Source of the DNA: an uncultured Pirellulaceae bacterium
GTDB lineage: Bacteria; Planctomycetota; Planctomycetia; Pirellulales; Pirellulaceae
Length of the DNA stretch: 28,969 nucleotides
Direction: 5' to 3'
Assembly (NCBI GenBank): GCA_964443915.1
Contig: CAYUFW010000069.1
Coordinates: 1-28,969 of the forward strand
Numbering within the stretch: position 1 is the stretch's first letter; every line of letters begins with the position of its first letter. The position numbers were made by a program, and so were the translations under genes. Shown here piece after piece: positions 2,928 to 16,286 of this stretch. The notes under the pieces were generated by a model. The model made no database searches. It saw only the letters and a program-made list of their open reading frames with translations, and had not been told where the DNA came from.

Positions 2928-3128
2928 ATGGAAGAACGAGTGGTTCAACAACTGGTCGACAAGCTTCGGGAGGCGGAGCCTCTTTACCACCGGCTCGTGT
3001 TGCTGATCGGCCCGCCGGGAAGCGGAAAAACAGAATGCCTTGTGGAAGTCAGTCGGAGGCAACCGTTGCCTCTTATCAACGTCAGTCTGGAGCTATCCCG
3101 CTCGTTGCTGCCGCTGACGGAGCGGCAC
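2928..3128 (+). pseudogene. brxF: Truncated BrxF-like P-loop ATPase (BREX type-3 first gene); only the N-terminal 67 codons are retained
   Basis: ATG 2928 follows GGGGGA. MEERVVQQLVDKLREAEPLYHRLVLLIGPPGSGKT...PLINVSLELSRSLLPLTERH matches my recollection of the small BrxF P-loop family (Walker A plus the NxxLELSRxLL segment). Protein-like sequence ends at 3128; the rest of ORF 2928-3311 is antisense to the nuclease gene and reads as junk. Confidence 0.6.
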
Positions 3129-3784
3129 TACTTTGTGCGAAACCGACTGATATCCGTACATTCGACGATTCGACCAAGGGTGTTCGGAGTGAACACCTTG
3201 CCGCGAGTGGCCAGCAGCAACTTCTTCATGTCCTCGCGTCGGACGCCAAAGCCCCGTCCGCCGATACACGCAACGACCTGGAATCGAGGCTTTCCTCCGA
3301 CGGCTCCCTGAAGGCTGAGTTCCGCCAAGTGTTGGATTCGCGTCACCTTGTCGCGGGCCGTGCCGTCGTCCTCAGTGATTTTTGCTTCGATGACCACCTG
3401 GGGCGAGAACTCGTCCGGAACGATGAAGTCTGGCGTTTGGTCAAATCCCTGGATTCGTTCTGCCCGTTTCGTCTTGCGATAGCCAACGCCGTAGCGGTCC
3501 AGAACCGATTCGATCAGTGCCTCGAGGCCATGCCCAACCAAGTCGCTGACCGAATCCCGGTGACCGGCAAACGGACGACCGAGGAATCGTTCGTAGAGAA
3601 GCATTGCGTATGGAACGCCCATCGTTGAGATGTTCTCAACGGAGTGCAATCCCTCCAACGTGTCTGCTTTCTGTAGACGGTGAACGAGATGAGGTTCGAC
3701 GGTTGGGCAACCTTCCACGATCATTTCGCATGCGGTTTGCACCAGTGCCCGCACGCGCGGCCCCGTCACCTCCGTCACCCGCAA
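3128..3784 (-). CDS. PD-(D/E)xK restriction-endonuclease-like protein
   Basis: 218-aa ORF with E88/E92...P118-D119...E133-A-K135 (QTPDFIVPDEFSPQVVIEAKITEDDGTARDK), a classic PD-(D/E)xK arrangement. The start is uncertain (TTG 3784, GTG 3778 or ATG 3724). The stop TAG (3130-3128) abuts the brxF breakpoint. Confidence 0.7.
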   Translation of the reverse strand: MRVTEVTGPRVRALVQTACEMIVEGCPTVEPHLVHRLQKADTLEGLHSVENISTMGVPYAMLLYERFLGRPFAGHRDSVSDLVGHGLEALIESVLDRYGVGYRKTKRAERIQGFDQTPDFIVPDEFSPQVVIEAKITEDDGTARDKVTRIQHLAELSLQGAVGGKPRFQVVACIGGRGFGVRREDMKKLLLATRGKVFTPNTLGRIVECTDISRFRTK

Positions 3785-3940
3785 CGGCCTGAGTGGCTCC
3801 AGGCGGATCCTGCGATCGTGTCGACCTCCAGATTCGCGAAACCCGCCGTGGCTTTTTTCAACGCCTCGTAGCCAGCTTCAAACTATGAGGTCAAGGTCCG
3901 CACGTCAGTTCTTGATGGCGCGACCTCCCCATGCGGCTGA

Positions 3941-3981
3941 TGACTATAGTCAGTTGAGAGCGACGCCGCAATGGTCATATT
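3941..3981 (+). promoter_or_regulatory. C-box-like operator (12-bp palindrome TGACTATAGTCA) abutting a sigma70-like promoter for a probably leaderless controller gene
   Basis: The perfect palindrome at 3941-3952 contains GACT..AGTC half-sites, as in characterised C-protein operators. It is followed by TTGAGA (3954-3959), a 16-nt spacer and CATATT (3976-3981). ATG 3988 lies 6 nt after the -10 element, implying a leaderless mRNA. The half-site GTCAGTT recurs at 3904-3910 and 3949-3955. Confidence 0.5.
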
Positions 3982-3987
3982 GGCGAC

Positions 3988-4245
3988 ATGTCACGGACAC
4001 CACGAGTAACTGAACTTCGACAATCGCTGGGCAAGGAGCTGCGGAGGGCTCGGCAGAGTCGCGGTTTGAGTCAGGAGAAGCTGGCCGGACTCAGCGATTT
4101 GGATCGGACGTACATCGGCTTGCTGGAACGAGCTGAAAAATCGCCGACGGTGGATACGCTCCTACGCGTTGCCTTCGCTCTGGGCGAAACGCCTTCGGAG
4201 CTACTTGCACGTGCGGAAGCCGCGTGTGAAGGCCGTCAAAGATGA
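3988..4245 (+). CDS. XRE-family HTH protein, restriction-modification controller (C-protein)-like
   Basis: 85 aa. LSQEKLAGLSDLDRTYIGLLERAEKSPTVDTLLRVAFALG matches the typical C-protein/XRE HTH pattern (RTYIxxxERxxxxPS). The stop overlaps the next start (ATGA at 4242-4245). Confidence 0.85.
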   Translation: MSRTPRVTELRQSLGKELRRARQSRGLSQEKLAGLSDLDRTYIGLLERAEKSPTVDTLLRVAFALGETPSELLARAEAACEGRQR

Positions 4246-4844
4246 GTGATCTGCCCACCGGAAGAAACGGCTCGCGTCGGCAGTCGAGTAGCAGGAAGCC
4301 GCTGCCCGTCGAGACGCTACTGGAACTTGACGCGGCCCTCATCGAGGCATTCGGCGCAATCACTGCTGTGCGAAAGCGAAGTCTCGTTGCGGGTCTGATA
4401 CAATATCCGCCCTTGCCTTCTCCCTTCAGCGAGTCACTGGTCATCGCGGCCGCACCCATACTATTCGGTCCCGAATGGAGGGCGGCGTACGGTGGAACCG
4501 ATTGTGACGTCGTGCTAGAAACGAACTCGGGAATCCGGAGACGCGTCGAGGTCAAGGCGACGGGACGCCACGCGTTTCAAGAACTCAAGGAGAAGGACCT
4601 TCGGGCCGATTTCCTCGTCTGGGTCCGCTTCGGCCGACGCTACGAGATCGGCAGTGGCCCCATCCAACTCTGCGTGTTGGAGAACCCCGGACACTACATT
4701 CCGAGGCCCTGTCGTCTCGACACGGTCCGTTTCGAACGGATCGTTGGCGTCGCGGCCAACCAGCGACTTCTCAGCTTCAGCTCGCTGGCGGATCTGCTGT
4801 GCATGGCGCGCGACGGCGTGTTGGAGCACCCAGCTAACCGCTGA
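4242..4844 (+). CDS. PD-(D/E)xK nuclease-fold protein, translationally coupled to the controller gene (putative restriction endonuclease or toxin)
   Basis: 200 aa. E64...D87/D89 (GGTDCDVVLE)...E103-V-K105 (RRRVEVKATG). ATGA overlap with the HTH gene. Confidence 0.6.
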   Translation: MSDLPTGRNGSRRQSSSRKPLPVETLLELDAALIEAFGAITAVRKRSLVAGLIQYPPLPSPFSESLVIAAAPILFGPEWRAAYGGTDCDVVLETNSGIRRRVEVKATGRHAFQELKEKDLRADFLVWVRFGRRYEIGSGPIQLCVLENPGHYIPRPCRLDTVRFERIVGVAANQRLLSFSSLADLLCMARDGVLEHPANR

Positions 4845-5043
4845 CTCGCCTGCCGGGCCGTTCCTTGACCTGGACCGACACCAGATCGGGCCAGTGGTTG
4901 AGGTCAAGTCCGTCGACAAGAGAATCGCACAAAGTTCCCTTATGGAAAAGGGCGTGAAAGCGGTCCTCCAGTCGCTCGGGTTCCGCTTTGGACCTCACCG
5001 TGATCTTAAAAGTCAGTTCATACTTCTTTGTTCGCACTGGCAT
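4834..5043 (-). CDS. Small hypothetical protein (69 aa)
   Basis: ATG 5043 follows GGGGGA with a 6-nt spacer. The local GC is low (45% in line 4981-5040). The sequence is MPVRTKKYELTFKITVRSKAEPERLEDRFHALFHKG..., and I recognise no family. The 3' end overlaps the convergent gene 4242-4844 by 11 nt. Confidence 0.4.
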   Translation of the reverse strand: MPVRTKKYELTFKITVRSKAEPERLEDRFHALFHKGTLCDSLVDGLDLNHWPDLVSVQVKERPGRRVSG

Positions 5044-5118
5044 TGCCGTTCCCCCTGACATAATCGCTATCGTAGCCCACCGCACAAGCCGGAATCGGGT
5101 TGTCGAGACTTCGATCTG

Positions 5119-5424
5119 TCACGCCATCGGGTTGATGTCCGATCCGGTGACGGAGCAGCCCAGGCGATTGGCCTCCAGCATTGTGGTTCCACCGCCCATG
5201 AACGGATCGAGAACGCTGACGTGTGGAAAAGCGTTGTCGTGAAAGAATCGTTTGCTGACTGGCTCGTTGCCGAACTCGGCGAGCAAGAGAGCGCGAAAAA
5301 GCGTTCCCGGTCGGCGAGCGAACCACTTGTGAACTGCGACGATCGGACGGTAATTCTGCTGGATTTGCTTCTCGCGCAAAGCTATCCCCGCGACGAACGG
5401 GATCTCGAAATCGCGTTCTATCAT
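5119..5424 (-). pseudogene. N-terminal fragment of a DUF1156-type (PglXI-like) DNA methyltransferase, truncated just after motif I
   Basis: ATG 5424 follows AGGAAG. The DUF1156-like signature REKQIQQNYRPIVAVHKWFARRPGTLFRALLL is followed by SAM motif I, LDPFMGGGTTMLEANRLGCSVTGSDINPMA, and then a stop. There is no DPPY motif or target-recognition region downstream in any frame. Confidence 0.65.
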
Positions 5425-5920
5425 CTTGCTTCTTCCTGAAGTCGATTGGAGATGCCGAACGTCATTTCCGGGCAACATCGGGCAGCGCACCGCCCAAAGC
5501 GAGAATGCTCAGTGCTGGTATGGCGGCACGGACACGCCCATCGCGCTTCGCAAGTCACGCTGCATGCCCCAGTTCCGCTTCGGGCCACCCCACAGCACCA
5601 CAACCATCCGCTTTATCTCTGGAGCGGTTCGGATCGAACCGCCGATGTTTTCGTCTTCCCAGGTGGCGTAGTCAAGCCCGCACAATGGGCAACGAGCCAC
5701 TGTCTGGAGGGCGAGCACTCGCCTTCCAGCCGCATTATGTCGCACCCCAATTGGTCTTTTCCGACGGCACCCGCCCTTGCCGATTGTGGTAGCGAGACCG
5801 TCCCGGCATGAAACCAACGGCGACTTGTGTCGGAATTCGCGCCAAGCCCCTCAGATCTGGCCATCGCCTGCAAATCCGTGGGCTCGGAGCAAATCGTCTT
5901 GCCGCTGAACGCCCCAACAT

Positions 5921-5972
5921 GGTCACTGACCAAGCTTTCGGCCTCCAAGCCAGGTTGGTCACTGACCAAGCT
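5921..5972. repeat. Direct repeat of a 16-bp unit (GGTCACTGACCAAGCT) at 36-bp spacing; each copy contains the palindrome GGTCA-n-TGACC
   Basis: Read directly: copies at 5921-5936 and 5957-5972 are identical. They lie in the decayed, non-coding stretch between the two methylase fragments. Confidence 0.85.
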
Positions 5973-6036
5973 CCAGCTTGCATCGCCGCGTCTAGTGGCG
6001 TAAAGTATGGACGTACAGTGACTTGCGACGGGTGCA

Positions 6037-6393
6037 ATGGCGATTCCCCAAGCGGCGAAACCCCGTCGGAGGACTTGTATTCTCCGCGAGCGGGCGTTGT
6101 CGAAGGAATTCTGGGAGTACCTGCCGCCGGGCTACAAGCCGGCCGAAAAGGATTCCCCGCAGGCCGTCCTGCCCGGCTTTGAGGAGCGGGAAACCAAGAC
6201 GCCGCGGGGCCGGCGTCTAAGGGTCATCCGCCTGGAAGCCGTCCGCGCCGGCTTCAAGCACTGCTGGCAGAACCGCGACTACCGTACCATCATCGCCATC
6301 GCCCAACGCATCCCCGAAAACGTCCTCCAGGAAGACCCCAAGCTCCTGATGTGGTACGATCAAGCACTGACCAGAACGGGCCAAGAAAGCTGA
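6037..6393 (+). pseudogene. C-terminal remnant of a large defence-island DNA methyltransferase (pglXI-like tail)
   Basis: ...RAGFKHCWQNRDYRTIIAIAQRIPENVLQEDPKLLMWYDQALTRTGQES matches my recollection of the conserved C-terminal tail of DUF1156-type methylases. No catalytic domain lies upstream. The stop is 9 nt before the next gene, as expected for the original operon junction. Confidence 0.45.
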
Positions 6394-6402
6394 AAGCAGA
6401 CC

Positions 6403-7188
6403 ATGTTTGCCGACTGGAAGGAACATTACAGTCTGACGAAGGGCCGAACGGTCCTAGCGGGATGGGCGTTTGAATCCGTGTCGGCCTGCAGGGTGTATTT
6501 CGCCAATCGGGTAATGGCAAAGCTGCAGGAGGCCAATGCAGCCGCCATGCTGGAAGACTACTTGCGGGAAATGGCGGATACGGGATTCGACACGTCCGCC
6601 TTGATGGGCCAAGTCCAGGCACCTCCGGTGCCCAAGGACTGGGAGATCGGCGAATTGTTCGCCGCCGCGATGCTTGAGGACCGATTTGACGCGGCCTTTC
6701 CGTGGCCCACGGCGTGGGACAAACGCACGCCAAAAGCCAGCCTGCCGGGACCAGACATGCCGGGGTTTGAACGTACGAATCCACCACGATTCCTGTTCGG
6801 CGAGGTCAAGTCGTCGTCGCAACAGAAGACACCACCGGATGCGGCAACAAGCGGGGACGATTCACTCTGCAAGCAGATCGGGCGCCTTCTGACTTCTCCC
6901 GCACTCAGACAGCAGTTGGTCCAATGGCTGCTCATCAGAACTCAGGATGCACCGCGCTGGCGGCCGATACTTGATGAGGCAATCCAGCGTTATACGCAGG
7001 GGAACGCGCTGATCTGCGGCGTCCTGGTCCGGGGAAAAAGGCCGCCAACGGTGCGGGACCTATCGCCCGTGCAGGATGACGTAGCCGCCATCGCCAGCAG
7101 TTTCGACGTGCGACTGTTCGCGTTTTACCTCCCGTGTGAGATGGCGGATTGGATCAAGTTGCTTTATCCAGGGGAGTCGCCGAATTGA
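6403..7188 (+). CDS. PD-(D/E)xK-like nuclease-fold protein (HamA/Cap4-like arrangement), uncharacterised
   Basis: 261 aa. E84...P117-D118...E134-V-K136 (LPGPDMPGFERTNPPRFLFGEVKSSS). ATG 6403 is 9 nt after the methylase-tail stop. The 3' end overlaps the next start. Confidence 0.6.
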   Translation: MFADWKEHYSLTKGRTVLAGWAFESVSACRVYFANRVMAKLQEANAAAMLEDYLREMADTGFDTSALMGQVQAPPVPKDWEIGELFAAAMLEDRFDAAFPWPTAWDKRTPKASLPGPDMPGFERTNPPRFLFGEVKSSSQQKTPPDAATSGDDSLCKQIGRLLTSPALRQQLVQWLLIRTQDAPRWRPILDEAIQRYTQGNALICGVLVRGKRPPTVRDLSPVQDDVAAIASSFDVRLFAFYLPCEMADWIKLLYPGESPN

Positions 7189-8000
7189 GCGCATTTCCCT
7201 CTGATTACATCCTTGATCAGTTCGGTGGGCTGGACGCGATTCGCCAGCAAGTGGACTTGGCGCGCATCCGCGTCGCCAAGTCGGTGCTGGCACAAATCGC
7301 GGCTGGCGATCGGTCGGCTACCTGCGCAGTGTCAACTTCGGAACTCGGCAAGACCCAGCAGACACTGCAAGTCGCCGAGCTGCGGGCGCTCGACCTGCTA
7401 CTACATTGGCAGCGAGATGCTCGCTCGCAGGAAGGCCAGGAGTTCCGACGCTGCTGCTCCTTTGCCTATGACTTGCGGCGGTCACTGCCGCCTCCGGACG
7501 ATGCCGACGAGGCCTTGAAAAGCTGGCTGCTGCTTTCCTGTGCGGCCGTGCTCGGCGACCGTTCGGCCGACGTCCGGCGGTATTTCCGCGAACATCCGTG
7601 GGCGATTCCTCAGCCGGATGCTGGCCGACCGAACTGGATGCAGTTGCTGTTCTATACGACCGCTGAGGCTTTCCTGCGAGTCGTGCGAAAACAGGGCTGG
7701 GCCGATCTGGAGCACGTCGCGGCATCGGTCAGCAGCCTTCGCGAACAGCAAGGACAATTCGAGCAGGCCTATTTGCATCAGGAAAACGGTATCCGGCAAA
7801 CGGCGGCCTTGGAGCTAGTGGCGTGCTACCATTTGGCAAAGGCCGTTGAAGTCCTGGCGCTCTATGTCGGCACAGGCGAGCCCGCCCGAGCAACAGACGA
7901 AGTCGAGTTCCACGTGAGCCGTGCCGAGCGGCTGATACGGCGGGAATTGTTGAGTTGGCGTTGTTGCTCCGCTGGATGGGGGCTGCAGCACGAGCACTGA
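7185..8000 (+). CDS. Hypothetical, probably all-helical protein (271 aa), coupled to the nuclease-like gene and the helicase
   Basis: TTG 7185 lies 8 nt after GGGGAG (7171-7176) and overlaps the upstream TGA (7186-7188). Alternative starts are TTG 7149 and GTG 7251. I recognise no motif. The last ~18 codons (LLSWRCCSAGWGLQHEH) look atypical; see the frameshift finding. Confidence 0.55.
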   Translation: MSAFPSDYILDQFGGLDAIRQQVDLARIRVAKSVLAQIAAGDRSATCAVSTSELGKTQQTLQVAELRALDLLLHWQRDARSQEGQEFRRCCSFAYDLRRSLPPPDDADEALKSWLLLSCAAVLGDRSADVRRYFREHPWAIPQPDAGRPNWMQLLFYTTAEAFLRVVRKQGWADLEHVAASVSSLREQQGQFEQAYLHQENGIRQTAALELVACYHLAKAVEVLALYVGTGEPARATDEVEFHVSRAERLIRRELLSWRCCSAGWGLQHEH

Positions 8001-8044
8001 TTCGCAGCACGATCTGGCATCAACTCGGCGCCTATAACGACAAG

Positions 8045-10414
8045 ATGACTTCCTTCAAGAAGGTGCTGGCCAGCCGGGACAAAAGCCAGCCCATGTTCGA
8101 GTTGTTGCCCCCGCAACGGGACGCGATCCAGGAGTTGATGAGCGTCGGCAATCGAGCGTTGGTCGTCGAGCTGCCGACGTCCAGCGGCAAGACGCTGCTC
8201 GCGGAATTCCGCATCATCCAGACCAAGGTGAACGTCGCGGATTCTTGGATTGCCTATCTGGTTCCGACTCGGGCGTTGGTCAATCAAGTCACGGCCCGCC
8301 TGCGTCGGGACCTCGGTGGCCTCGAACCGGATCTGAAGGTGGAGTTGGCATCGCCGGCCATCGAAGTCGACGTCTTTGAAGAGGAGCTTCTTCAGGGCGC
8401 GGATACCTTTGATGTGCTGGTAACGACGCTTGAAAAACAGGACCTTCTCATACGTAGCCGGCGGATCGATCTGAAGCGCCGCCCGCTGGGGTTGGTCGTT
8501 CTGGACGAAGCTCACAACCTAGGTGACGGTGCGCGTGGATTACGCAGCGAACTGCTGCTGTCGACGGTCAACCGTGAGTCGCCGGAAACGCATTTCCTGC
8601 TGCTGACGCCGTTCGTCCCTAACGCTGAGGAGTTGGCGAAGTGGCTGGACGACGAACGCTCGAAGAGCATCCAACCTAGTCTCTCCGTGGATTGGCAGCC
8701 AAACGACCGTCTGATCGGCTTGGCCTACCTGGAGGGAAAGGGTCGGGTTTGGGGGTTAAACCTACGAGCACTGCACACGAGTCGTCCGAGCATTCACTTT
8801 GAGGGCGACGCGGTCTTGGAGTCCAGCCGGGAACGCGCGGTCCCGATCAGCACGGCAAAAAGTTCCAAGAAGAAAGTCGCCGCGGAAATCTCGCGTGTGC
8901 TTTCGATTCGCGAGTGTGCAATCGTGCTGGCCTACTCGCCAGCCGATACCTGGGACATCGCTGCGGACATTGCGGACGGGATGCCGCCGATCAGCAAACC
9001 GTCGCCTCGGCTGCAACTTGTCCGGCGCTTCGTGGAAGAGGAATACGGCGACACGTTCCCGCTGGCCCGGTTGCTCGACAAGGGCGTCGGCGTCCACCAC
9101 GCTGGCATCTCGCCGGATACGCGGTATCTGTTCGAGTGGCTGGTGGAGAACGGCGAGTTGAAAACGTTGGTGGCGACGTCGACCCTGGCCCAAGGGGTGA
9201 ACTTCCCCATTTCCAGCGTGGTGTTGGCCACGCATCAAAAACCCAAGGTGATCGGGAACAGCTACATCCGAGAATCGCTTCGACCCGACGAGTTTTGGAA
9301 CGTCGCCGGCCGCGCGGGCCGGCTCTTCCAGGATTCGCTCGGTTTGGTCGTGTTTGCGTCGACCACCACGCGCGACGAAGATGTGGAGAAATTCGTCGAT
9401 GCCAGCGTTCAACACTTGGCGTCCGCCTTGGAGGAGATGATCGCTGACACGATCTCCAAGGGATGGGAATTGGACTTGAAGCGACTGGTCAAAAGTGATG
9501 CGAAGTGGTCCAGCTTCGTGCAATTCCTCTCTCACACCTATCGCCAGATCAACGATCATTCGCGGTTCGTCGCGGACACCGAGATGCTGCTGAGGCGAAC
9601 CTACGCCTATCGGCGTCTCCTGGTGCATCAGCCGGAGGTGGCGCAGCAACTGCTGGAATCGACTCGGGTTTACGCGGAGCAGTTGAAGAGACTACCGGCA
9701 GGCGTGGCGTCGCTGGTGGACACGACAGGTTTTTCGCCGGAAACAGTGGTGCAACTCCTGACAAAGAAAGCCGAGATGCAGCTGCCTCGATCGGAGTGGA
9801 GTCCCAGTCAGCTCTTTCGAACCGGCGGCGAAGGGCTGCGAAACCTTGTCGGCAAGATGCTGGAAGTCAACGAACTCAGCATCGAAGGCCGAGGGGTCGG
9901 CGAACCCGGCAGCCTCGCGGACATCATCAGCATGTGGGTCGGCGGCAATTCGTTACGGGAAATCGCCGATACACATTTTCGGACTGAGAACGATGCGGGA
10001 AAGAGGCTCACCGACTGCTGTCGCCTGATCTTTCAGAAGGTAGCGCAGAACGCATCGTGGGGGCTCGGCGCCATTCAGAGTTTGGCCGGTGTGGATCTGA
10101 GTTCACTCCCCCGGACGGAACAGGAGGCATTTCGCACGCTGCCGTCGATGATTTACTTCGGATGTTCGACGGTCGAAGGTGTGCTGATGCGATCCCTGAA
10201 CGTACCGAGGTCCGTCAGTGTGCCGTTGGGCGACGCTTTCAGGGCAGACACTTCGTCGGATTCAAGCCCCGGCACTCGTAGGGAACGGGCAAGAAGCTGG
10301 ATCCGCGATGCTAAGCGTGCGGTCTGGGACAAAGCCGCTCGGGCGAGTCGGCTGTCGGGAAAAGATTGCCGCAACCTGTGGCAAATCCTCAACGGACGTG
10401 AGCCGGATTTCTAA
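8045..10414 (+). CDS. brxHII: SF2 DEAH-box helicase, Ski2/Hel308-like (BrxHII-like / HamB-like)
   Basis: Motif I ELPTSSGKT (about 8174-8194), motif II VLDEAHNLG (DEAH at 8504-8515), GVGVHHAGISP, LVATSTLAQGVNFP and WNVAGRAGR. I use ATG 8045 as the start, but the frame is open from 7850 and TTG 7955 is an equally possible start. Confidence 0.85.
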   Translation: MTSFKKVLASRDKSQPMFELLPPQRDAIQELMSVGNRALVVELPTSSGKTLLAEFRIIQTKVNVADSWIAYLVPTRALVNQVTARLRRDLGGLEPDLKVELASPAIEVDVFEEELLQGADTFDVLVTTLEKQDLLIRSRRIDLKRRPLGLVVLDEAHNLGDGARGLRSELLLSTVNRESPETHFLLLTPFVPNAEELAKWLDDERSKSIQPSLSVDWQPNDRLIGLAYLEGKGRVWGLNLRALHTSRPSIHFEGDAVLESSRERAVPISTAKSSKKKVAAEISRVLSIRECAIVLAYSPADTWDIAADIADGMPPISKPSPRLQLVRRFVEEEYGDTFPLARLLDKGVGVHHAGISPDTRYLFEWLVENGELKTLVATSTLAQGVNFPISSVVLATHQKPKVIGNSYIRESLRPDEFWNVAGRAGRLFQDSLGLVVFASTTTRDEDVEKFVDASVQHLASALEEMIADTISKGWELDLKRLVKSDAKWSSFVQFLSHTYRQINDHSRFVADTEMLLRRTYAYRRLLVHQPEVAQQLLESTRVYAEQLKRLPAGVASLVDTTGFSPETVVQLLTKKAEMQLPRSEWSPSQLFRTGGEGLRNLVGKMLEVNELSIEGRGVGEPGSLADIISMWVGGNSLREIADTHFRTENDAGKRLTDCCRLIFQKVAQNASWGLGAIQSLAGVDLSSLPRTEQEAFRTLPSMIYFGCSTVEGVLMRSLNVPRSVSVPLGDAFRADTSSDSSPGTRRERARSWIRDAKRAVWDKAARASRLSGKDCRNLWQILNGREPDF

Positions 10415-10439
10415 CCACCGGCAACCGCGGAGGCGGGGC

Positions 10440-12431
10440 ATGGCTGATTGGCGGGAAGCGATCCTCGGCGAGTTCACTCCCGAAGTGGCCCGCTTGACCA
10501 TCGCCTTCGATCCGGACGGTTTGCTGCTGGAGCAGAACCTGCTGGACCGCGTGCTGCAGCGCGGCTTCGAGGTGGTGCAGTGGGAGGACGATGTTCAGTT
10601 CCGGTTCGTGTACGAGTCCCGGTTCCGCGCGAGGTGGGACCGAGGTGAAGGACCGGAGATGATTGTGGACGTTCGCGGATCGGGCCAGGCGTCAACCGCA
10701 CTGCCGTACGACATCCTGTCCAAGGGGCGGACCGTCGAGTTCTCGCTGGCCGGCCTGTTTCCGCAACTGAGCTATCCCGTGGTGGCTTTGCTGGACAGGA
10801 CCGACTTCGACACGCTGTATCAGGCCGTGGTCCAATTCCGCCCGGATCCCCTGGGCGAAAACGCGACCAAAGGCTTCGTTCTCCGCCACGTGTTCGAGAT
10901 CGCACCGGAACTGATCAAGACGCCCGTGGAGTTGCTGCGCGTGCTGCTCCGCAGGCATTATCGTGCGCAGCGTATTCCGGAGTTGGTCGAACGGCGCTTG
11001 ATCGAGCTGCTGCGGACTCGGCCGGCGTTCAAGGATTGGCCTCTGGAACGGATCGTTCCCGATCGCAACGAGTTCCTGCGATTCCTGCAGGAACGCTGGC
11101 CGCACTACCTGAGTTCGTTCACGTCGGGCGTGGCGGAGGAGCCTGTGCTGGAGATCTCCGGCCCGGTCGCCTTGCCTTTCGATCATGAAGACATCCGCGT
11201 TTACATCGACAACTACTTCGTGGAGGGCCTGCTGCAGCCTGTGGAGCATGAAGCCGGGGACCGGTTGCTCGATCGCTGGGTGGCCGTGGGCCTGAGGGGG
11301 CATCGTGGCCAAGTGGACCCTCGGCGAGTCCAGCGATTGATCGAACTGACCAACGAAAGTCTGCCGGCCGAAGGCTGTCCCTTCCAGGACTGGTGCCAGT
11401 TTGCCGGCCGCTGGGGGGAATTGCAGGTGGGCCTGTATCGATTATCAGACCGTCTCCGTGGCACGCCAAAGCCTTGGGATGCGGTCAGCCAGCTACAGGC
11501 CGCACTCGACGAGGCGTTTTCGTCTTGGCTGGCCCGGCACTACGCGGCCTTGGCCAACCTGCCGCCGGTCCCGCCGGCGATGCTCCATCACGTGCCTCGT
11601 TTACTTGCCCGCCAGCTGGCGTCGTCTCCGAAAGCCAAAGTGGCCCTGGTAGTCGTGGACGGGATGTCGTGGACGCAATGGCTGGTAATCCGCGACCTGA
11701 TGAGCGAGTCGCACGAGCGATTCGACCTTCGGGAGGACGCCACCTTTGCCTGGCTGCCGACGCTGACCTCCGTATCGCGGCAGGCTCTGTTTGCCGGCTT
11801 GCCGCCCTTCTACTTCCCGGACAGCATTGACGGCACCGAGAAGGAACCGGCCCTGTGGACGAAGTTCTGGAGCGATCACGGTCTGGCGGCTCACCAAGTC
11901 GCTTACCGAAAAGGGCTTGGCAAAGGCGACGCCGACCAGGTGTTGGATCTGCTGGCCAACCCGCGAATCCGCGTCGTCGGTCTTGTCGTGGACACGCTGG
12001 ATCGCATTATGCACGGAGCCGAACTGGGAGCGCGCGGCGTACTGGGCCAGGTTGAACACTGGGCTCGTGACGGTTACCTCGGCAAGCTCTTGCGGCTGTT
12101 GCTGGTCCACGGATTCCTGCCCGTTGTAACGTCAGACCACGGCAACGTGGAGGCCAGCGGGTGCGGGCGACCCAGTGAAGGCGCGCTGGCGGAGCTGCGC
12201 GGCGAACGCGTGCGGGTGTATCCCGATCCGGCCTTACGGGCGCGTGTTTGGGAGCGTTTCCCGCAGGCCAGACAGCCCGCCCTCGTTGCGTTGCCGGATC
12301 GTTATTATCCGCTGCTCGCGCCGCTCCGCCGCGCGTTTGTGGCTGAGGGAGAGCGCATCGTTGCCCACGGCGGCGATGGCTTGGAGGAACTGATTGTGCC
12401 GTTGGTGACGGTCCGGGGGCGAAAGGGATGA
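10440..12431 (+). CDS. pglZ: PglZ-domain protein (alkaline-phosphatase superfamily; BREX phosphatase-like)
   Basis: 663 aa. ATG 10440 follows GGAGG. PglZ hallmarks are KVALVVVDGMSWTQW, PTLTSVSRQALFAG, VVDTLDRIMHG, VVTSDHGN and AHGGDGLEELIVPL. Confidence 0.85.
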   Translation: MADWREAILGEFTPEVARLTIAFDPDGLLLEQNLLDRVLQRGFEVVQWEDDVQFRFVYESRFRARWDRGEGPEMIVDVRGSGQASTALPYDILSKGRTVEFSLAGLFPQLSYPVVALLDRTDFDTLYQAVVQFRPDPLGENATKGFVLRHVFEIAPELIKTPVELLRVLLRRHYRAQRIPELVERRLIELLRTRPAFKDWPLERIVPDRNEFLRFLQERWPHYLSSFTSGVAEEPVLEISGPVALPFDHEDIRVYIDNYFVEGLLQPVEHEAGDRLLDRWVAVGLRGHRGQVDPRRVQRLIELTNESLPAEGCPFQDWCQFAGRWGELQVGLYRLSDRLRGTPKPWDAVSQLQAALDEAFSSWLARHYAALANLPPVPPAMLHHVPRLLARQLASSPKAKVALVVVDGMSWTQWLVIRDLMSESHERFDLREDATFAWLPTLTSVSRQALFAGLPPFYFPDSIDGTEKEPALWTKFWSDHGLAAHQVAYRKGLGKGDADQVLDLLANPRIRVVGLVVDTLDRIMHGAELGARGVLGQVEHWARDGYLGKLLRLLLVHGFLPVVTSDHGNVEASGCGRPSEGALAELRGERVRVYPDPALRARVWERFPQARQPALVALPDRYYPLLAPLRRAFVAEGERIVAHGGDGLEELIVPLVTVRGRKG

Positions 12432-13222
12432 GACAGCGGCATCGCCAAGTCGGCTTTAGCCAGCGAGTGCGCCTGGAATGGCTGGAGCGAACGGCCAGCC
12501 TCGTGTTGGCGGGAAATACAGAACAGGACACGATCGCCGGACTGCAGGCGTTTCTGCAGGACAAGATTTCCGTCGGCGGCTCGGCGGTGCGGAGTAACCG
12601 CGAGAAGGTCATTACGATCTTGCGGCGAGTCTGGCTGCCTGTCGACGACGAACTGGCCGGGCTCCGAGAAGCGGGGCTTGGCTTCCTGCGGGACCTGCCC
12701 CAGGAAGAACACCTTGCGGTTCACTGGGGCATGGTGATGGCGGCGTACCCGTTTTGGTCCACCGTGGCAGAGACCGTGGGCCGCCTGTTGCGACTGCAGG
12801 GTACGGTGTCTGCCGCCCAGGCCCAACGCCGAGTCCGCGAGAGCCTCGGCGAACGGGAGACCGTAGCCAGGGCCGCCCGACGCGTCATCCGTGCGTTCAT
12901 GGATTGGTGCGTGCTCTCTGAGACCGGCGCGAAAGGCGTTTATGGCCGCAGCGCTGTGCTTCAGGTCGCTTCGACCGATCTTACCGCGTGGCTGGTGAAC
13001 GCCTACCTTTGCGCTTCGTCAACCGGCAGAGCCGATCTTGACGCCGTACTGAATTCTCCAGCGTTCTTCCCCCTTCGGCTGCGGCGTTTGACCGGCCCCG
13101 ACGTAGTGTCGAAAACCCGAGGGCGCGTCGATGTCATTCGCCACGCCAACAATGAAGATCTGGCAATTCTGTCACCACCCCGCGCTAGTCTTCCACAACG
13201 GGACAGGTTCTCAGCCTCATGA
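12428..13222 (+). CDS. brxA: BrxA-like (DUF1819-like) helical protein; the last gene of the block
   Basis: 264 aa. ATGA overlap with the pglZ stop (12428-12431). It sits where brxA sits in type-3 BREX. The sequence is helical with a wHTH-like segment (ERETVARAARRVIRAFMDWCVLSETGAKGVY). The family assignment rests on position and general character only. Confidence 0.45.
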   Translation: MRQRHRQVGFSQRVRLEWLERTASLVLAGNTEQDTIAGLQAFLQDKISVGGSAVRSNREKVITILRRVWLPVDDELAGLREAGLGFLRDLPQEEHLAVHWGMVMAAYPFWSTVAETVGRLLRLQGTVSAAQAQRRVRESLGERETVARAARRVIRAFMDWCVLSETGAKGVYGRSAVLQVASTDLTAWLVNAYLCASSTGRADLDAVLNSPAFFPLRLRRLTGPDVVSKTRGRVDVIRHANNEDLAILSPPRASLPQRDRFSAS

Positions 13223-13338
13223 AGCGAAGGGGGATCCTACGAACGAGACCGCCACCCTGCGGAAGACCGCCCTCCGTCATCTTGATGGCAGAGAACCGAG
13301 GGCATTTGAAGTAACGGGCGCACAAGGGAGGTGGGAAC

Positions 13339-13668
13339 ATGAAGCCGTTTCGATTACTGAAGATCGCAGCGCCGCGGACGATCGATCCGGAGGGGAACCA
13401 GGAGTGGGCTGCGGCCCAGGACTCGCTCCGCAAGAAGTTGGACGAGTGGATCCCGGTCGTGCTGGCGGCCCAAATGGCCTGCTGGTACGACGACCGGCAA
13501 CGTGACAACTTCAACCGCGCGACGTTCAACCCGTTGCGGCTGGACGTCCAGTTGCAGAGCAAGTGGTCTGCGGGCATCCTGGAACGGTGGGTGGACGGGG
13601 TCTACACTATCACGAACACCGACCGGACGACGCTCCATGATCCTTTTCTGACGCAAGAGGCGAGATGA
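13339..13668 (+). CDS. Small hypothetical protein (109 aa)
   Basis: ATG 13339 follows a strong SD (GGGAGGTGGG). The stop overlaps the next start (ATGA at 13665-13668). Confidence 0.6.
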   Translation: MKPFRLLKIAAPRTIDPEGNQEWAAAQDSLRKKLDEWIPVVLAAQMACWYDDRQRDNFNRATFNPLRLDVQLQSKWSAGILERWVDGVYTITNTDRTTLHDPFLTQEAR

Positions 13669-16286
13669 TGAAAACGTTCTTACTGAACTGTCTGGTTGCA
13701 TGCGCGGCCATGGTAAGCCTGATTTTCGGGTTGTTGCCAATCCTGCAAGGCGGCGAGCCCGATCCGTTGCTGGACTGGTCGGCGTGGGAGCAGTATGGCG
13801 GCACGGTCAAGCACCCGTGCGTCACGTTCAAGTCGGCGGACATCGAGCGTGCCAAGGCGAACATCCAGCGGTACACCTGGGCGAAGAACTACGCGGCGGG
13901 CGTCGAGGCGAGCGCTAAGCGGCACCTCGACCGGCTCACGCCGGAGTTTCTGGCGAGCATGATTCCGGAGACGACGCCGGGTGATCCCCTCTGGACGCCC
14001 TGTCCGGCGTGCCGCGAGCAAGGCAAGCCGGTCCATCCGCACGGGCTCTGGGACTGGGACCTGGACGATGCCGACCACATCCGCTGTACCATCTGCCGGA
14101 CGGTCTTTCCCAACGACCAGTACCCCGAAGACGTCGTGCTGCACACGCAGTGGCGCAAGCCGCAGACGATTGCGTACTGTGGCGGCGAAACGTTCGTCAT
14201 CTTCGGCTACAAGACCGGCCGGCCCAGCTTCACGGGGAACGTCCGCTCGCGAAAAGTCCGCTGGATCGCGGGCTACTGCCGCTCGCTGGGCGAGGCGCAT
14301 CTGCTGACCGGCAAGCCCGAATACGCCCGCGCCTGCCGCGAGATTCTCTTGCGGTTTGCGGACTGCTATCCAACGTGGCTGGTCCACGTCGGCTATGGGG
14401 AATACGCCGATACGGACCCGCGCACCGCGGCGCTGAACATCAATAAGCTGCCGGAGCCGGAACTGTGTCCGCCGCCCAACAAGCCGGACCGCCGGCTGCA
14501 CACCGGCTACTGGAGCGCGGGCCGAGCGGGCGGCGTGGGCATGGAATCCGGGTTCGTGCGGCAGGTGGTCGAGGCTTACGATTGGACGTGCGCTGCGAAG
14601 GCAGCCGACGGCAGTCCAATCTACAGCGACGCCGACCGGCGCAAGATCGAACGCGACTTGTTGCTGGAAAGCACGATCCTGCTGGTGTGCGACAAGCAGA
14701 TCAACAACAAGTCCGTCAGCAACCGCACGGCCGCCGCGCTGGTCGGCATGTGCGTCGGGCATCCGGATTTGGCGCGGTTCGGCCTGGAGGGTTTCCAGAA
14801 GACGGTCGACGGCTGGTTCCTGCCCGACGGCGCGACGTCCGAGTCGCCCAGTTACGGCACGATGACGCTGGGCGGAATCTGGGACCTGGCGGAGGCGTTT
14901 CGCGGGTACAGCGATCCGCCCGGCTATCAGGACGCGGACGGCAAACGGATCGACTCGCTTGATCTGTACCGCGGCACGGCGTACGAGCGCGTGTGGGAGT
15001 GCTTCTTTCGTGGGTTGCAGGGCGACCTGCGGTTTCCGCCTTGCGCCGATTCCTCGCGCGGGGCGAGCCTGGGAGTGAACTTCATCGAGTTGATGGCCAG
15101 CAACTATCCCGACCGGCCGCAGTACCTGGCATTGCTGAAGGAAACGTTGGGCGGCGGGCGCGGCAAGGCCGGAGCCGTGGCTGGAGACGTCACGCGGCAG
15201 GATCTGCTGAAGGAGTTGCCGGGTTCGGGCCTGGCGACCTACATCCGCGAGCCGGGCCTGGAACCGGGGACCTCGCCGCCGCTGTCGTTCGCGGACTGGT
15301 GTCCGCCGGATTTGCGGATCGGCCACCTGCGCACGGGCTCGGACGGCCGCGAGAGCCTGCTGACACTGAGCGCCAGCCACTGGGGCAATCACCATCACTA
15401 CGACAGCCTGAACGTCTACTACTGGAAGCAAGGCCGCGAACTGCTGTCCGACCTCGGCTACCTGTGGGACCATCCCTTGAAACACATGACCATGCACACC
15501 GTGGCGCACAACACGGTGGTCTTGGACGAGAAGGACCAGGTTGCGAGGGCCCGCGGCGGCGAGGTGCTGTTCTTCAAGACCTCCGAGCACGTCAAGGCGA
15601 TGGAAGCCTCGTCGCGCGCCTATCCGCAGGCGAAACTCTACCGCCGTACCACGGCGGTCATCGACCACGGCGGCGGGCGGAACTATGCCGTGGACTTCTT
15701 CCGCGTCGCAGGCGGCCAGCGGCAGGACTACGTGTATCACGCCGCTGCCAGCGCGTGCGACGTGCGGGACTTGAACCTGCAGCCTGTGCCGGCAGAGAAG
15801 CTGTACGATTTTGCCAACGTCCGCGCCGCCGACGGCGCCGGCGTGTGGCGGGCGACGTGGAAGTGCGGCGAGGACCTGACGTGCGTGGCGTGGAACGTGG
15901 GCCAGTCGGGCGAGCGGGCGCTGGTCGCCGACGGCTGGGGCCAGCGAGACTGGAAGAACTCCGACATCGGCGCAACGATTCCCTACGTCGTCCGCCGCTG
16001 TGAGGGCGAAGGCGTGCGGACGTTCGTCTCGGTTATCGAAGGCCACGTTGGAGCAGAGCCGTTTGTCCGCAACGTGAAGCTCGCGGATCCGTCCGGCGTG
16101 CTGATCGTCGAAACGCCGCTCGGCGCGGACTACGTCATGTCCCATCTCGATACGGGGACGCTGCCGGTATCCACATCCGCCGGGGGACAGCGCATCGCCG
16201 CCCATTTCGCCGTCGTCTCGGTCCAGGACGGGAAGGTGGCCTGGACTTCTGTTGTCGAGAGCTTGCCCGCCGGCGGCGGGCCATGA
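13665..16286 (+). CDS. Heparinase II/III-like (alginate-lyase-fold) protein with an N-terminal signal or anchor
   Basis: 873 aa. Hydrophobic N-terminus MMKTFLLNCLVACAAMVSLIFGLLP. A C-terminal heparinase II/III-like block: SASHWGNHHHYDSLNVYYWKQGRELLSDLGY...HNTVVLDEKDQ. Confidence 0.75.
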   Translation: MMKTFLLNCLVACAAMVSLIFGLLPILQGGEPDPLLDWSAWEQYGGTVKHPCVTFKSADIERAKANIQRYTWAKNYAAGVEASAKRHLDRLTPEFLASMIPETTPGDPLWTPCPACREQGKPVHPHGLWDWDLDDADHIRCTICRTVFPNDQYPEDVVLHTQWRKPQTIAYCGGETFVIFGYKTGRPSFTGNVRSRKVRWIAGYCRSLGEAHLLTGKPEYARACREILLRFADCYPTWLVHVGYGEYADTDPRTAALNINKLPEPELCPPPNKPDRRLHTGYWSAGRAGGVGMESGFVRQVVEAYDWTCAAKAADGSPIYSDADRRKIERDLLLESTILLVCDKQINNKSVSNRTAAALVGMCVGHPDLARFGLEGFQKTVDGWFLPDGATSESPSYGTMTLGGIWDLAEAFRGYSDPPGYQDADGKRIDSLDLYRGTAYERVWECFFRGLQGDLRFPPCADSSRGASLGVNFIELMASNYPDRPQYLALLKETLGGGRGKAGAVAGDVTRQDLLKELPGSGLATYIREPGLEPGTSPPLSFADWCPPDLRIGHLRTGSDGRESLLTLSASHWGNHHHYDSLNVYYWKQGRELLSDLGYLWDHPLKHMTMHTVAHNTVVLDEKDQVARARGGEVLFFKTSEHVKAMEASSRAYPQAKLYRRTTAVIDHGGGRNYAVDFFRVAGGQRQDYVYHAAASACDVRDLNLQPVPAEKLYDFANVRAADGAGVWRATWKCGEDLTCVAWNVGQSGERALVADGWGQRDWKNSDIGATIPYVVRRCEGEGVRTFVSVIEGHVGAEPFVRNVKLADPSGVLIVETPLGADYVMSHLDTGTLPVSTSAGGQRIAAHFAVVSVQDGKVAWTSVVESLPAGGGP

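What the first reader, a model, noticed from the sequence alone, without database searches (positions are those of the whole stretch)
6403..8000. Two uncharacterised genes between the methylase tail and the helicase; the nuclease-helicase pairing resembles Hachiman (HamA/HamB)
Canonical type-3 BREX has nothing between pglXI and brxHII. Here a 261-aa protein with a complete E..D..ExK constellation and a 271-aa helical protein are inserted, and both are translationally coupled to the helicase.

A PD-(D/E)xK protein immediately upstream of a Ski2-like helicase is the architecture of Hachiman (a DUF1837 nuclease plus a helicase). The locus may therefore be a hybrid in which a Hachiman-like sensor/effector pair is wired to PglZ and BrxA. 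Alternatively, these two genes may be previously unnoticed accessory subunits of BrxHII.
Basis: inference. Interest (0 to 1): 0.7.

Follow-up and report, generated by a model that had tools for sequence, protein, structure and literature searches.

The report
Divergent Hachiman pair inside decayed BREX
The "two unknown genes plus helicase" are a sequence-divergent version of the known Hachiman anti-phage nuclease-helicase pair (catalogued only as the untested candidate PDC-M23), lodged inside the remains of a type-3 BREX operon, with the helicase gene cut in two by a 4-base deletion.

Summary
The ORFs are real, but the gene count and the helicase's identity are wrong.

- **Nuclease.** ORF 6403-7188 (261 aa) matches PADLOC candidate PDC-M23A. 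E84, D118, E134 and K136 are invariant in 63 homologs. Its confident model (pLDDT 91) has one significant PDB match, E. coli HamA.
- **Second ORF.** The "271-aa helical protein" is not a separate gene. It is the N-terminal helical domain of the helicase. The two parts form one ~1,075-aa ORF in 81 of 81 related loci. A contig 99.9% identical to the window carries the intact 1,077-aa gene. The window lacks 4 bases at about 7924-7927.
- **Helicase.** It is not BrxHII, which is a Snf2 enzyme and is absent here. It is Ski2/HamB-like, and a full-length homolog model aligns end to end with HamB (TM 0.71).
- **Context.** Intact relatives read brxF-brxC-pglXI-A-B-brxHII-pglZ-brxA. The window keeps 67 codons of brxF, about 77 of pglXI, then A, broken B, pglZ and brxA.
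- **Distribution.** About 90% of the sampled relatives lack any BREX gene nearby. Many sit inside type I restriction-modification operons.

The Hachiman resemblance is supported. The "BrxHII accessory subunits" reading is refuted. The "hybrid" reading is unproven.

The parts
2928..3128 (+). brxF remnant: residues 1-67 of a ~158-aa BrxF, after which similarity ends
   Evidence: PADLOC BrxF E 4e-19, matching only profile positions 1-70 of 158. tblastn with L084 BrxF covers aa 1-67. The sequences diverge after 'LTER'.
6082..6393 (+). pglXI C-terminal remnant (about the last 77 of ~943 codons), inside ORF 6037-6393
   Evidence: PADLOC PglXI profile positions 842-918 of 919. L084 PglXI aa 866-942 align here at 57% identity and nowhere else in the window.
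6403..7188 (+). HamA-like PD-(D/E)xK nuclease (PADLOC PDC-M23A), 261 aa. Predicted catalytic residues are E84, D118, E134 and K136.
   Evidence: PDC-M23A E 2e-70 over the full length. The four residues are invariant in 63 homologs. AF2 model pLDDT 91. Foldseek top and only significant hit is HamA 8vxy_A, E 7e-6. The GE / GxDxxG / ExKS motifs line up with E. coli HamA E138/K140.
7185..7926 (+). 5' part of the HamB-like helicase gene (PDC-M23B): the N-terminal all-helical domain, equivalent to the HamA-binding NAH domain of HamB. The ORF runs on out of frame to the stop at 8000.
   Evidence: PDC-M23B profile positions 38-239 of 1060. Aligns to aa 1-249 of the fused L084 protein. The homolog model is all-helical over residues 1-296, and the HamB alignment covers the whole length.
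7924..7927 (.). Site of a 4-base deletion (frameshift) relative to the near-identical contig L091. The exact position is ambiguous within GCCG[TCCG]AGCG.
   Evidence: blastn of window against L091 gives 99.91% identity over 9,201 bases, one 4-base gap here and four substitutions.
7928..10414 (+). 3' part of the same helicase gene: Ski2/Hel308-type SF2 core plus C-terminal helical domains. NCBI calls it as a separate 789-aa protein.
   Evidence: PDC-M23B positions 248-1059, E 3e-282, and HamB E 4e-55. Pfam DEAD/ResIII. PDB sequence hits to Hel308, Ski2, Brr2 and HamB 8vx9_B at 6e-26. Aligns to L084 aa 248-1075 at 76% identity. P0116 is the 789-aa protein from NCBI.
8430..8439 (+). Two substitutions relative to L091 (C>T, T>A) that turn the conserved helicase motif TTPEKLD into TTLEKQD
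   Evidence: Differences listed. P0236 sequence compared with the window translation. In 32 homologs T413, T414, E416, K417 and D419 are invariant and L418 is at least 90% conserved.
10440..12431 (+). pglZ, full length, starting 26 bases after the helicase stop, with no brxHII in between
   Evidence: PADLOC PglZ E 2e-255, profile positions 1-664 of 666, from ORF residue 75. Pfam PglZ. L084 PglZ aa 1-666 align at 52% identity. Junction sequence.
12428..13222 (+). brxA, full length, with a 4-base overlap with pglZ
   Evidence: PADLOC BrxA E 1e-89, profile positions 1-247 of 251. L084 BrxA aa 1-260 align at 51% identity.

Best explanation
The region holds a two-gene, Hachiman-type defence cassette, catalogued in PADLOC as the untested candidate PDC-M23. 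It is nested in the remnant of a type-3 BREX operon.

Gene A (6403-7188) encodes a HamA-fold PD-(D/E)xK nuclease. Gene B (7185-10414) encodes a ~1,077-aa HamB-type helicase with an N-terminal helical domain, a Ski2/Hel308-like motor and C-terminal helical domains. In this window a 4-base deletion at ~7924-7927 splits B into two ORFs.

The mechanism is inferred by homology with E. coli HamAB and is not shown here. The helicase's N-terminal helical domain would hold the nuclease inactive. When the helicase engages damaged or free-ended DNA, as arises during phage infection, ATP-driven movement of the motor would loosen that grip. The nuclease would then degrade DNA indiscriminately and abort the infection.

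The cassette is most likely a self-sufficient guest, not a BREX subunit. It occurs alone, inside type I restriction-modification operons, inside Hma systems and, in the window's own clade, between pglXI and brxHII of type-3 BREX.

The window's copy is probably inactive. The helicase is frameshifted and carries two changes in a conserved motor motif. The surrounding BREX has lost brxC, nearly all of pglXI, half of brxF and all of brxHII.
For: Identity of A:
- PDC-M23A E 2e-70.
- Invariant E84/D118/E134/K136.
- pLDDT 91 model whose only significant PDB match is HamA.
- Motif-level alignment to HamA E138/K140.

Identity of B:
- PDC-M23B E 3e-282 and HamB E 4e-55.
- The full-length homolog model (pLDDT 86) matches HamB 8vx9_B at E 4e-29 and TM 0.71 over ~1,190 columns. 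Hel308 scores TM 0.44 over ~830 columns.
- The NAH domain is the HamA-binding domain and is specific to HamB (PMC12278908).

One gene, not two:
-.

Linkage:
- A is followed by B in all but one of the 80 genome loci. The exception, L001, holds only a partial A.
- The 4-base overlap between A and B is conserved.

Guest status:
- 47 of 80 loci have none of the searched BREX, Hma or type I restriction-modification genes within the DNA held (24 of these have short flanks). 28 have type I hsdM/hsdR, 3 are BREX-3 and 2 are Hma.
- L087 and L095 stand alone.
- Identities of A/B and of the BREX proteins are discordant between loci.
- PDC-M23 was defined from genes embedded in BREX, DISARM or type I restriction-modification systems. 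The supplement gives a count of 161 for its cassette (bioRxiv 10.1101/2024.01.29.577857).

Decay:
-.
Against: - No Hachiman sequence model recognises gene A. Pfam HamA (PF08878) gives no hit at E <= 0.1. No PADLOC HamA model hits at E <= 0.1. The profile search against PDB gives HamA only E 0.18. Homology of A rests on predicted structure and motifs.
- No experiment on any PDC-M23 member was found; no searched paper names PDC-M23 in its main text.
- I could not model the A-B complex.
- I saw only the global scores of the HamB alignment, not a per-domain superposition of the N-terminal domain.
- Within the window's clade the cassette keeps exactly the same slot in BREX-3 down to 38% identity (L009). 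That is more order than a random guest would show.
- The 4-base deletion could be an assembly artefact.
Confidence: 0.8

Rival explanations
1. Functional hybrid. In this lineage the HamB-like helicase, with its nuclease, has become a working part of type-3 BREX. It takes over the role of the Snf2 helicase BrxHII and acts together with PglZ and BrxA.
For: - In the window's clade the pair always sits in the same slot, same strand, about 10 bases (2-50 across the loci) after pglXI. This holds from 88% down to 38% identity.
- BrxHII has been lost or gutted at least three separate times in BREX-3 loci that carry the pair. The window and L091 have nothing left. L085 has a 38-residue remnant.
- L098/L099 have an in-frame 210-aa 'mini-BrxHII' that keeps only the Tudor and C-terminal domains. 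The rest of that operon is intact and tightly coupled, and the B protein of that locus was found on 23 contigs.
- L063 shows the same N-terminal domain fused to a Snf2 motor instead of the Ski2 one.
Against: - Five lineages keep a full BrxHII next to the pair (L084, L089, L004/5, L009, L096).
- BrxHII is missing from 23% of all type-3 BREX anyway (PMC12839542). Three of eight is therefore not a clear excess.
- Most cassettes have no BREX nearby.
- A/B and BREX protein identities are discordant, which suggests cassette exchange.
- The window itself lacks brxC and pglXI, so no BREX function can be served here.
Confidence: 0.12
2. The two ORFs are previously unnoticed accessory subunits of the BREX helicase BrxHII.
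For: Only position: they lie between pglXI and a helicase.
Against: - The helicase is Ski2/HamB-type, not the Snf2-type BrxHII.
- No BrxHII sequence is present in the window.
- The second ORF is part of the helicase gene itself.
- The pair occurs without any BREX in most loci.
Confidence: 0.01
3. The split of the helicase gene is an assembly or sequencing artefact, and the organism carries an intact, working A-B pair next to pglZ-brxA.
For: An independent assembly (Logan, run ERR14064718) of essentially the same sequence has the intact 1,077-aa ORF.
Against: - Three of the five differences in 9.2 kb fall in this one gene and all are damaging: the frameshift, plus P>L and L>Q in the TTPEKLD motif. 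This looks like relaxed or negative selection on this allele.
- A 4-base loss outside a homopolymer is not a typical read error.
- The rest of the locus shows real, large deletions.
Confidence: 0.3

Closest known systems
Hachiman type I (HamA/HamB; E. coli ECOR31, PDB 8VX9/8VXA/8VXY; PMC12278908)
   Same: - Two-gene operon with the nuclease first.
- A ~260-aa PD-(D/E)xK nuclease with the HamA fold and a D...ExK site.
- A ~1,100-aa helicase with an N-terminal helical domain, a Ski2-like core and C-terminal domains.
- Both predicted structures have their best PDB matches in HamA and HamB.
   Different: - Sequence similarity of the nuclease is below every family threshold.
- Identity to E. coli HamA is 14% and to HamB 17% in the structural alignments.
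- The nuclease carries a nearly invariant DKRTPKASLPGxD loop of its own.
- The cassette is usually nested inside methylation-based systems.
- No member has been tested.
PADLOC phage defence candidate PDC-M23 (cassette CAS_00096; bioRxiv 10.1101/2024.01.29.577857, supplement)
   Same: Both proteins match its A and B models over their full length (E 2e-70 and 3e-282). The candidate was defined from genes embedded in BREX, DISARM or type I restriction-modification systems, which is the context seen here.
   Different: It is listed there as a candidate distinct from known systems. No Hachiman relationship is stated in the text I could search. The window's copy is frameshifted.
Type-3 BREX (brxF-brxC-pglXI-brxHII-pglZ-brxA; PMC12839542)
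   Same: pglZ and brxA are intact and of the type-3 kind. Remnants of brxF and pglXI lie in the canonical order.
   Different: brxC and brxHII are absent. pglXI is reduced to ~77 codons and brxF to 67. The helicase present belongs to a different SF2 family from BrxHII.
AbpAB (a Hachiman-related nuclease-helicase pair; discussed in PMC12278908)
   Same: A HamA-like domain paired with a Ski2-like helicase.
   Different: AbpA has an extra Cap4-like nuclease domain and an inactive HamA-like site. Here the protein is a single domain with the catalytic residues intact.

Membership tests
Hachiman (HamAB) | Two adjacent co-oriented genes: the nuclease immediately upstream of the helicase | tested here: met
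   TTGA overlap at 7185-7188. A is followed by B in all but one of the 80 genome loci.
Hachiman (HamAB) | HamA matches the DUF1837/HamA sequence family (Pfam PF08878, PADLOC HamA models) | tested here: not met
   No Pfam hit at E <= 0.1. No PADLOC HamA hit at E <= 0.1. Five of 63 homologs hit PF08878, best E 9e-4, all below the 25-bit cut-off. The family profile against PDB HamA gives E 0.18.
Hachiman (HamAB) | HamA fold (PD-(D/E)xK core with the HamB-binding insertions) | tested here: met
   Foldseek against PDB: HamA 8vxy_A ranks first with E 7e-6, probability 1.00, TM 0.54/0.57 and 264 columns. The next non-Hachiman hit has E 0.13. The model has a helix-loop-helix at 26-59 and helices at 155-198, where HamA contacts HamB.
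Hachiman (HamAB) | Conserved D...E-x-K catalytic motif in the nuclease | tested here: met
   D118, E134 and K136 (plus E84) are invariant in 63 sequences. They align with the HamA GxDxxG and E138-x-K140 motifs.
Hachiman (HamAB) | HamB is a Ski2-like SF2 helicase | tested here: met
   PADLOC HamB models down to E 4e-55. PDB sequence hits to Hel308, Ski2, Brr2 and HamB. NCBIfam Hel308-type models.
Hachiman (HamAB) | N-terminal alpha-helical (NAH) domain on the helicase, absent from other Ski2 helicases | tested here: met
   The homolog model is all-helical over residues 1-296. HamB structures align over ~1,190 columns with TM 0.71. Hel308, Hjm and Pol theta align over only ~800-890 columns with TM 0.42-0.51. 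Caveat: only global scores were seen, and there is no sequence similarity in this domain.
Hachiman (HamAB) | HamA-HamB complex, DNA-damage-triggered nuclease release, and phage protection | not testable with these tools
   No multimer prediction or experiment was available. No published test of PDC-M23 was found.
Type-3 BREX | BrxC ATPase | tested here: not met
   tblastn with the L084 BrxC (1,242 aa) finds nothing in the window.
Type-3 BREX | PglXI (BrxXI) methyltransferase | tested here: not met
   Only residues 866-942 of 943 are present.
Type-3 BREX | BrxHII Snf2-type helicase | tested here: not met
   No match in the window. The helicase stop and the pglZ start are 26 bases apart.
Type-3 BREX | PglZ and BrxA | tested here: met
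   Full-length PADLOC matches at E 2e-255 and 1e-89.
PADLOC PDC-M23 | Both A and B models matched by adjacent genes | tested here: met
   A E 2e-70. B matched in two pieces that together cover profile positions 38-1059 of 1060.

The most novel reading that the evidence does not exclude
The HamA-like nuclease together with the N-terminal helical domain of its helicase may be a portable 'nuclease-on-a-leash' module that can be driven by different SF2 motors. In type-3 BREX loci that acquired it, the HamB-like helicase may have made the Snf2 motor of BrxHII redundant.

Supporting hints:
- Three independent losses of the BrxHII motor occur next to the pair. One is a clean in-frame 'mini-BrxHII' that keeps only the Tudor and C-terminal domains, in an otherwise intact operon (L098/L099).
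- One locus has the same N-terminal domain fused to a DrmD/BrxHII-like Snf2 motor (L063).
- Stand-alone copies of the N-terminal domain sit next to a type III restriction enzyme or a PglXI-like methylase (L080, L092).

If true, a BREX variant would use a Hachiman-type sensor-effector as an integral part.
Probability: 0.12. Interest if true: 0.7.

Novelty: new member of a known kind. Interest (0 to 1): 0.38.

Why it matters
- It assigns a fold, catalytic residues and a testable mechanism (Hachiman-like sensing of DNA integrity) to a defence candidate that was known only as PDC-M23, 'hypothetical protein plus DEAD/H helicase'.
- It shows that sequence models miss a whole branch of Hachiman. A profile of the A family finds 698 clusters at 50% identity.
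- It corrects an easy annotation error. A helicase sitting between pglXI and pglZ is not necessarily BrxHII.
- The side observations on repeated loss of the BrxHII motor, and on the swapping of helicase motors behind the same N-terminal domain, give concrete experiments on how nested defence systems interact.
- The window's own copy is a decaying locus and is of little functional interest.

Tried and rejected
- Pfam and NCBIfam scans of the 261-aa and 249-aa products gave nothing.
- PDB sequence searches with the 261-aa protein and with its family profile gave only a marginal HamA hit, E 0.18.
- A Pfam scan of ten more distant family representatives gave no better link to HamA.
- The homolog search with the N-terminal part alone returned only short proteins, so it could not supply full-length rows. 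Full-length rows came from the helicase search instead.
- The metagenome scan with the single protein returned one short contig.
- The promoter and terminator scan of 5800-13500 found nothing above chance.
- PDB searches for the two ORFs in the filler region (3128-3784 on the minus strand, 4242-4844 on the plus strand) gave nothing.
- I considered a natural split gene or programmed frameshift for the helicase and rejected it. Conserved residues RAADTAGIVE lie upstream of any start codon in the downstream frame. All 81 relatives are fused. A 99.9% identical contig is intact.
- I considered strict co-evolution of the pair with BREX and rejected it. Pairwise identities are discordant.
Full report
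**What is in the sequence.**

On the + strand the window carries a run of closely spaced ORFs:

| Coordinates | Length | Note |
|---|---|---|
| 6037-6393 | 118 aa | |
| 6403-7188 | 261 aa | |
| 7185-8000 | 271 aa | from TTG |
| 7955-10414 | 819 aa | |
| 10440-12431 | | PglZ |
| 12428-13222 | | BrxA |

PADLOC models identify them as follows:
- The first ORF is the last ~80 residues of PglXI.
- The 261-aa product is PDC-M23A (E 2e-70, full length).
- The 271-aa product matches positions 38-239 of the 1,060-position PDC-M23B profile.
- The 819-aa product matches positions 248-1059 of the same profile (E 3e-282), and many HamB models (best 4e-55).
- BrxHI/II models score only 1e-10.

Pfam sees DEAD/ResIII in the helicase and PglZ in the next gene. 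It sees nothing in the two 'unknown' products.

**The second 'gene' is the front of the helicase gene.**

- The fused 1,081-aa protein of an intact relative (L084) aligns with residues 1-249 in the frame of 7185-7931 and residues 248-1075 in the frame of 7922-10411. No residues are lost across the junction.
- In all 81 related loci that contain both parts, they form a single ORF with a median of 1,084 codons.
- The 90%-identity cluster of the window's helicase holds a 1,077-aa member. Its contig, L091, is 99.91% identical to window 6330-15526.
- L091 differs from the window by four extra bases at ~7924-7927 (GCCG[TCCG]AGCG) and four substitutions.
- Two of the substitutions change the motif TTPEKLD to TTLEKQD. 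Its T, T, E, K and D are invariant in 32 homologs, and its L is at least 90% conserved.
- Three of the five differences in 9.2 kb therefore damage this one gene.
- I cannot tell from the sequence alone whether the deletion is a mutation or an assembly fault.

**What the pair is.**

*Nuclease (gene A).*
- The 261-aa protein has 100 listed homologs.
- In a 63-sequence alignment, E84, D118, E134, K136 and Q158 are invariant. A DKRTPKASLPGxD loop is nearly invariant.
- With that alignment AlphaFold gives a confident model (pLDDT 91, pTM 0.88).
- Foldseek against the PDB returns one significant match, HamA of the E. coli Hachiman complex (8vxy_A, E 7e-6, probability 1.00, TM 0.54/0.57, full length). 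A second Hachiman entry follows at E 4e-3, and the next unrelated hit is at E 0.13.
- The weak sequence alignment to HamA places GE, GxDxxG and ExKS against the corresponding HamA motifs, including E138/K140.
- At the sequence level the family lies outside Pfam HamA. The window protein has no hit. Five of 63 relatives have sub-threshold hits.

*Helicase (gene B).*
- I modelled a full-length homolog 79% identical to the window's helicase part (P0119, pLDDT 86).
- Its three best PDB matches are HamB structures (E 4e-29, TM 0.71/0.66, ~1,190 aligned columns).
- Hel308, Hjm and Pol theta align over only ~800-890 columns with TM 0.42-0.51.
- The extra aligned part is the N-terminal helical domain.
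- In HamB this NAH domain binds HamA and is absent from other Ski2 helicases (PMC12278908).

The pair is therefore a structurally faithful but sequence-divergent Hachiman.

**The helicase is not BrxHII, and the BREX is a remnant.**

- Canonical BrxHII is a ~940-aa Snf2/RapA-like helicase, present in 77% of type-3 BREX systems (PMC12839542).
- Intact relatives show the ancestral layout brxF-brxC-pglXI-A-B-brxHII(Snf2)-pglZ-brxA. These are L084, L089, L004/L005, L009 and L096.
- Searching the window with the L084 proteins finds only these:

| L084 protein | What the window holds |
|---|---|
| BrxF | residues 1-67 |
| PglXI | residues 866-942 |
| A | present |
| B | present, in two frames |
| PglZ | present |
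| BrxA | present |
| BrxC | no match |
| BrxHII | no match |

- About 2.9 kb of unrelated sequence (3128-6082) replaces some 7 kb. It includes the first 123 codons of a DUF1156/HmaB-type methylase on the opposite strand.

**Distribution and context of the cassette.**

- A profile of the A family finds 698 clusters at 50% identity with E <= 0.001.
- In 80 genome loci, A is followed by B in all but one. The exception, L001, holds only a partial A.
- Context of those 80 loci:

| Context of A-B | Loci |
|---|---|
| type I hsdM and/or hsdR around the pair, nearly all on the same strand (e.g. L043: hsdM-hsdS-A-B-x-x-hsdR) | 28 |
| type-3 BREX | 3 |
| Hma (L006: HmaB-A-B-x-HmaC) | 2 |
| none of these detected | 47 (24 with short flanks) |

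- Stand-alone examples include L087, next to an IS1595 transposase, and L095 in Brocadia.
- In a neighbour-joining tree of A, all BREX-linked and Hma-linked loci fall in one clade with the window. They are mixed there with unlinked members.
- Pairwise identities of A/B and of the BREX proteins disagree. The window's A/B are closest to L084/L085, but its PglZ is equally far from L084 and L004. That pattern fits cassette exchange better than strict co-inheritance.
- This matches how PDC-M23 was defined: a cassette (CAS_00096) found among genes embedded in BREX, DISARM or type I restriction-modification systems. The supplement gives it a count of 161 (bioRxiv 10.1101/2024.01.29.577857).
- No searched paper names PDC-M23 in its main text or links it to Hachiman.

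**Mechanism (inferred).**

By analogy with HamAB (PMC12278908), the helicase would hold the nuclease through its N-terminal helical domain. Engagement of damaged or free-ended DNA and ATP hydrolysis would shift that domain and release or activate the nuclease, which then degrades DNA.

- Shown here: the folds, the conserved catalytic residues and the gene linkage.
- Inferred: complex formation, the trigger and the outcome.
- For the window's allele, the frameshift would separate the nuclease-binding domain from the motor. The conserved RAADTAGIVE segment would be missing from both products.

**The hybrid idea.**

It is not excluded, and some observations favour it.
- In the window's clade the pair always occupies the same slot after pglXI, down to 38% identity (L009).
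- BrxHII has been lost or gutted at least three times beside it:
  - The window and L091 have nothing left.
  - L085 has a Tudor-domain remnant.
  - L098/L099 have a 210-aa in-frame product. It joins BrxHII residues ~4-69 to ~764-931, so the Snf2 motor is deleted. This sits within an otherwise intact, tightly overlapping operon, and the B protein of that locus was found on 23 contigs.

Against it:
- Five lineages keep a full BrxHII.
- BrxHII is absent from 23% of type-3 BREX in general.
- Most cassettes have no BREX at all.

I put this reading at about 12%.

**Verdict.**

The count of genes and the identity of the helicase are wrong. The region is a new, divergent member of a known kind of system, already catalogued as an untested candidate. 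Here it is present as a probably inactive copy in a decayed BREX locus.

Noticed in passing
window 3128-6082: Filler that replaces the 3' half of brxF, all of brxC and most of pglXI. It holds a 218-aa ORF on the minus strand (3128-3784) with a PD...EAK-like motif and a 200-aa ORF (4242-4844) with a D...EVK-like motif; neither has any family or PDB hit. It also holds the first 123 codons of a DUF1156/HmaB-type anti-phage methylase on the minus strand (5119-5490). It looks like debris of other defence systems.
   Followed up: partly
L098 13231-13863 (also L099): A 210-aa 'mini-BrxHII'. It is an in-frame join of BrxHII residues ~4-69 (Tudor domain) and ~764-931 (C-terminal domain), with the Snf2 motor and the inactive nuclease domain deleted. 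It lies in an otherwise intact brxF-brxC-pglXI-A-B-X-pglZ-brxA operon with overlapping stops and starts. The B protein of this locus was found on 23 contigs.
   Followed up: partly
L063 10732-14610: A 1,292-aa ORF after an A-like gene. Its first ~260 residues are the PDC-M23B N-terminal helical domain (E 6e-54). The rest is a Snf2 helicase (DrmD E 6e-121; BrxHII- and HmaA-like) instead of the Ski2 core. This is a helicase-motor swap behind the same nuclease-binding domain.
   Followed up: partly
L080 10693-11478; L092 2868-3737; L093 4106-4945; L081 10783-11640: Stand-alone genes of ~260-290 aa that encode only the N-terminal helical domain. In L080 it follows an A gene and precedes a type III restriction-modification pair. 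In L092 it directly follows a PglXI-like methylase, with no A gene. In L093 it is alone. In L081-L083 it follows an A gene, and three contigs diverge right after it, next to a large serine recombinase and phage-like genes. It is unclear whether these are truncation remnants or working genes.
   Followed up: partly
L006 7148-17360; L010 245-7048: The same cassette is nested in Hma (DUF1156 methylase / DUF499 ATPase) systems, the relatives of type-3 BREX. As in BREX-3, it sits right after the methylase gene (L006).
   Followed up: partly
L085 1684-3195; L089 258-1625; L096 3669-6414: Other guests lie between brxC and pglXI of the same BREX-3 operons. L085 has a 503-aa SLFN/AlbA_2-HATPase_c_4-Fic-like protein. 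L089 has a 455-aa PIN_4 protein. L096 has small ORFs plus a PLDc_2 protein. This is a second insertion hotspot in these operons.
   Followed up: no
L097 13279-18145: The same B protein as in L096, but here brxHII and pglZ are broken into several short ORFs. This is either another decaying BREX-3 beside an intact A-B pair or an error-rich assembly.
   Followed up: no
window 15265 and 15267: The only other differences from the near-identical contig L091 are two substitutions two bases apart, inside the 873-aa heparinase II/III-like gene (13665-16286).
   Followed up: no
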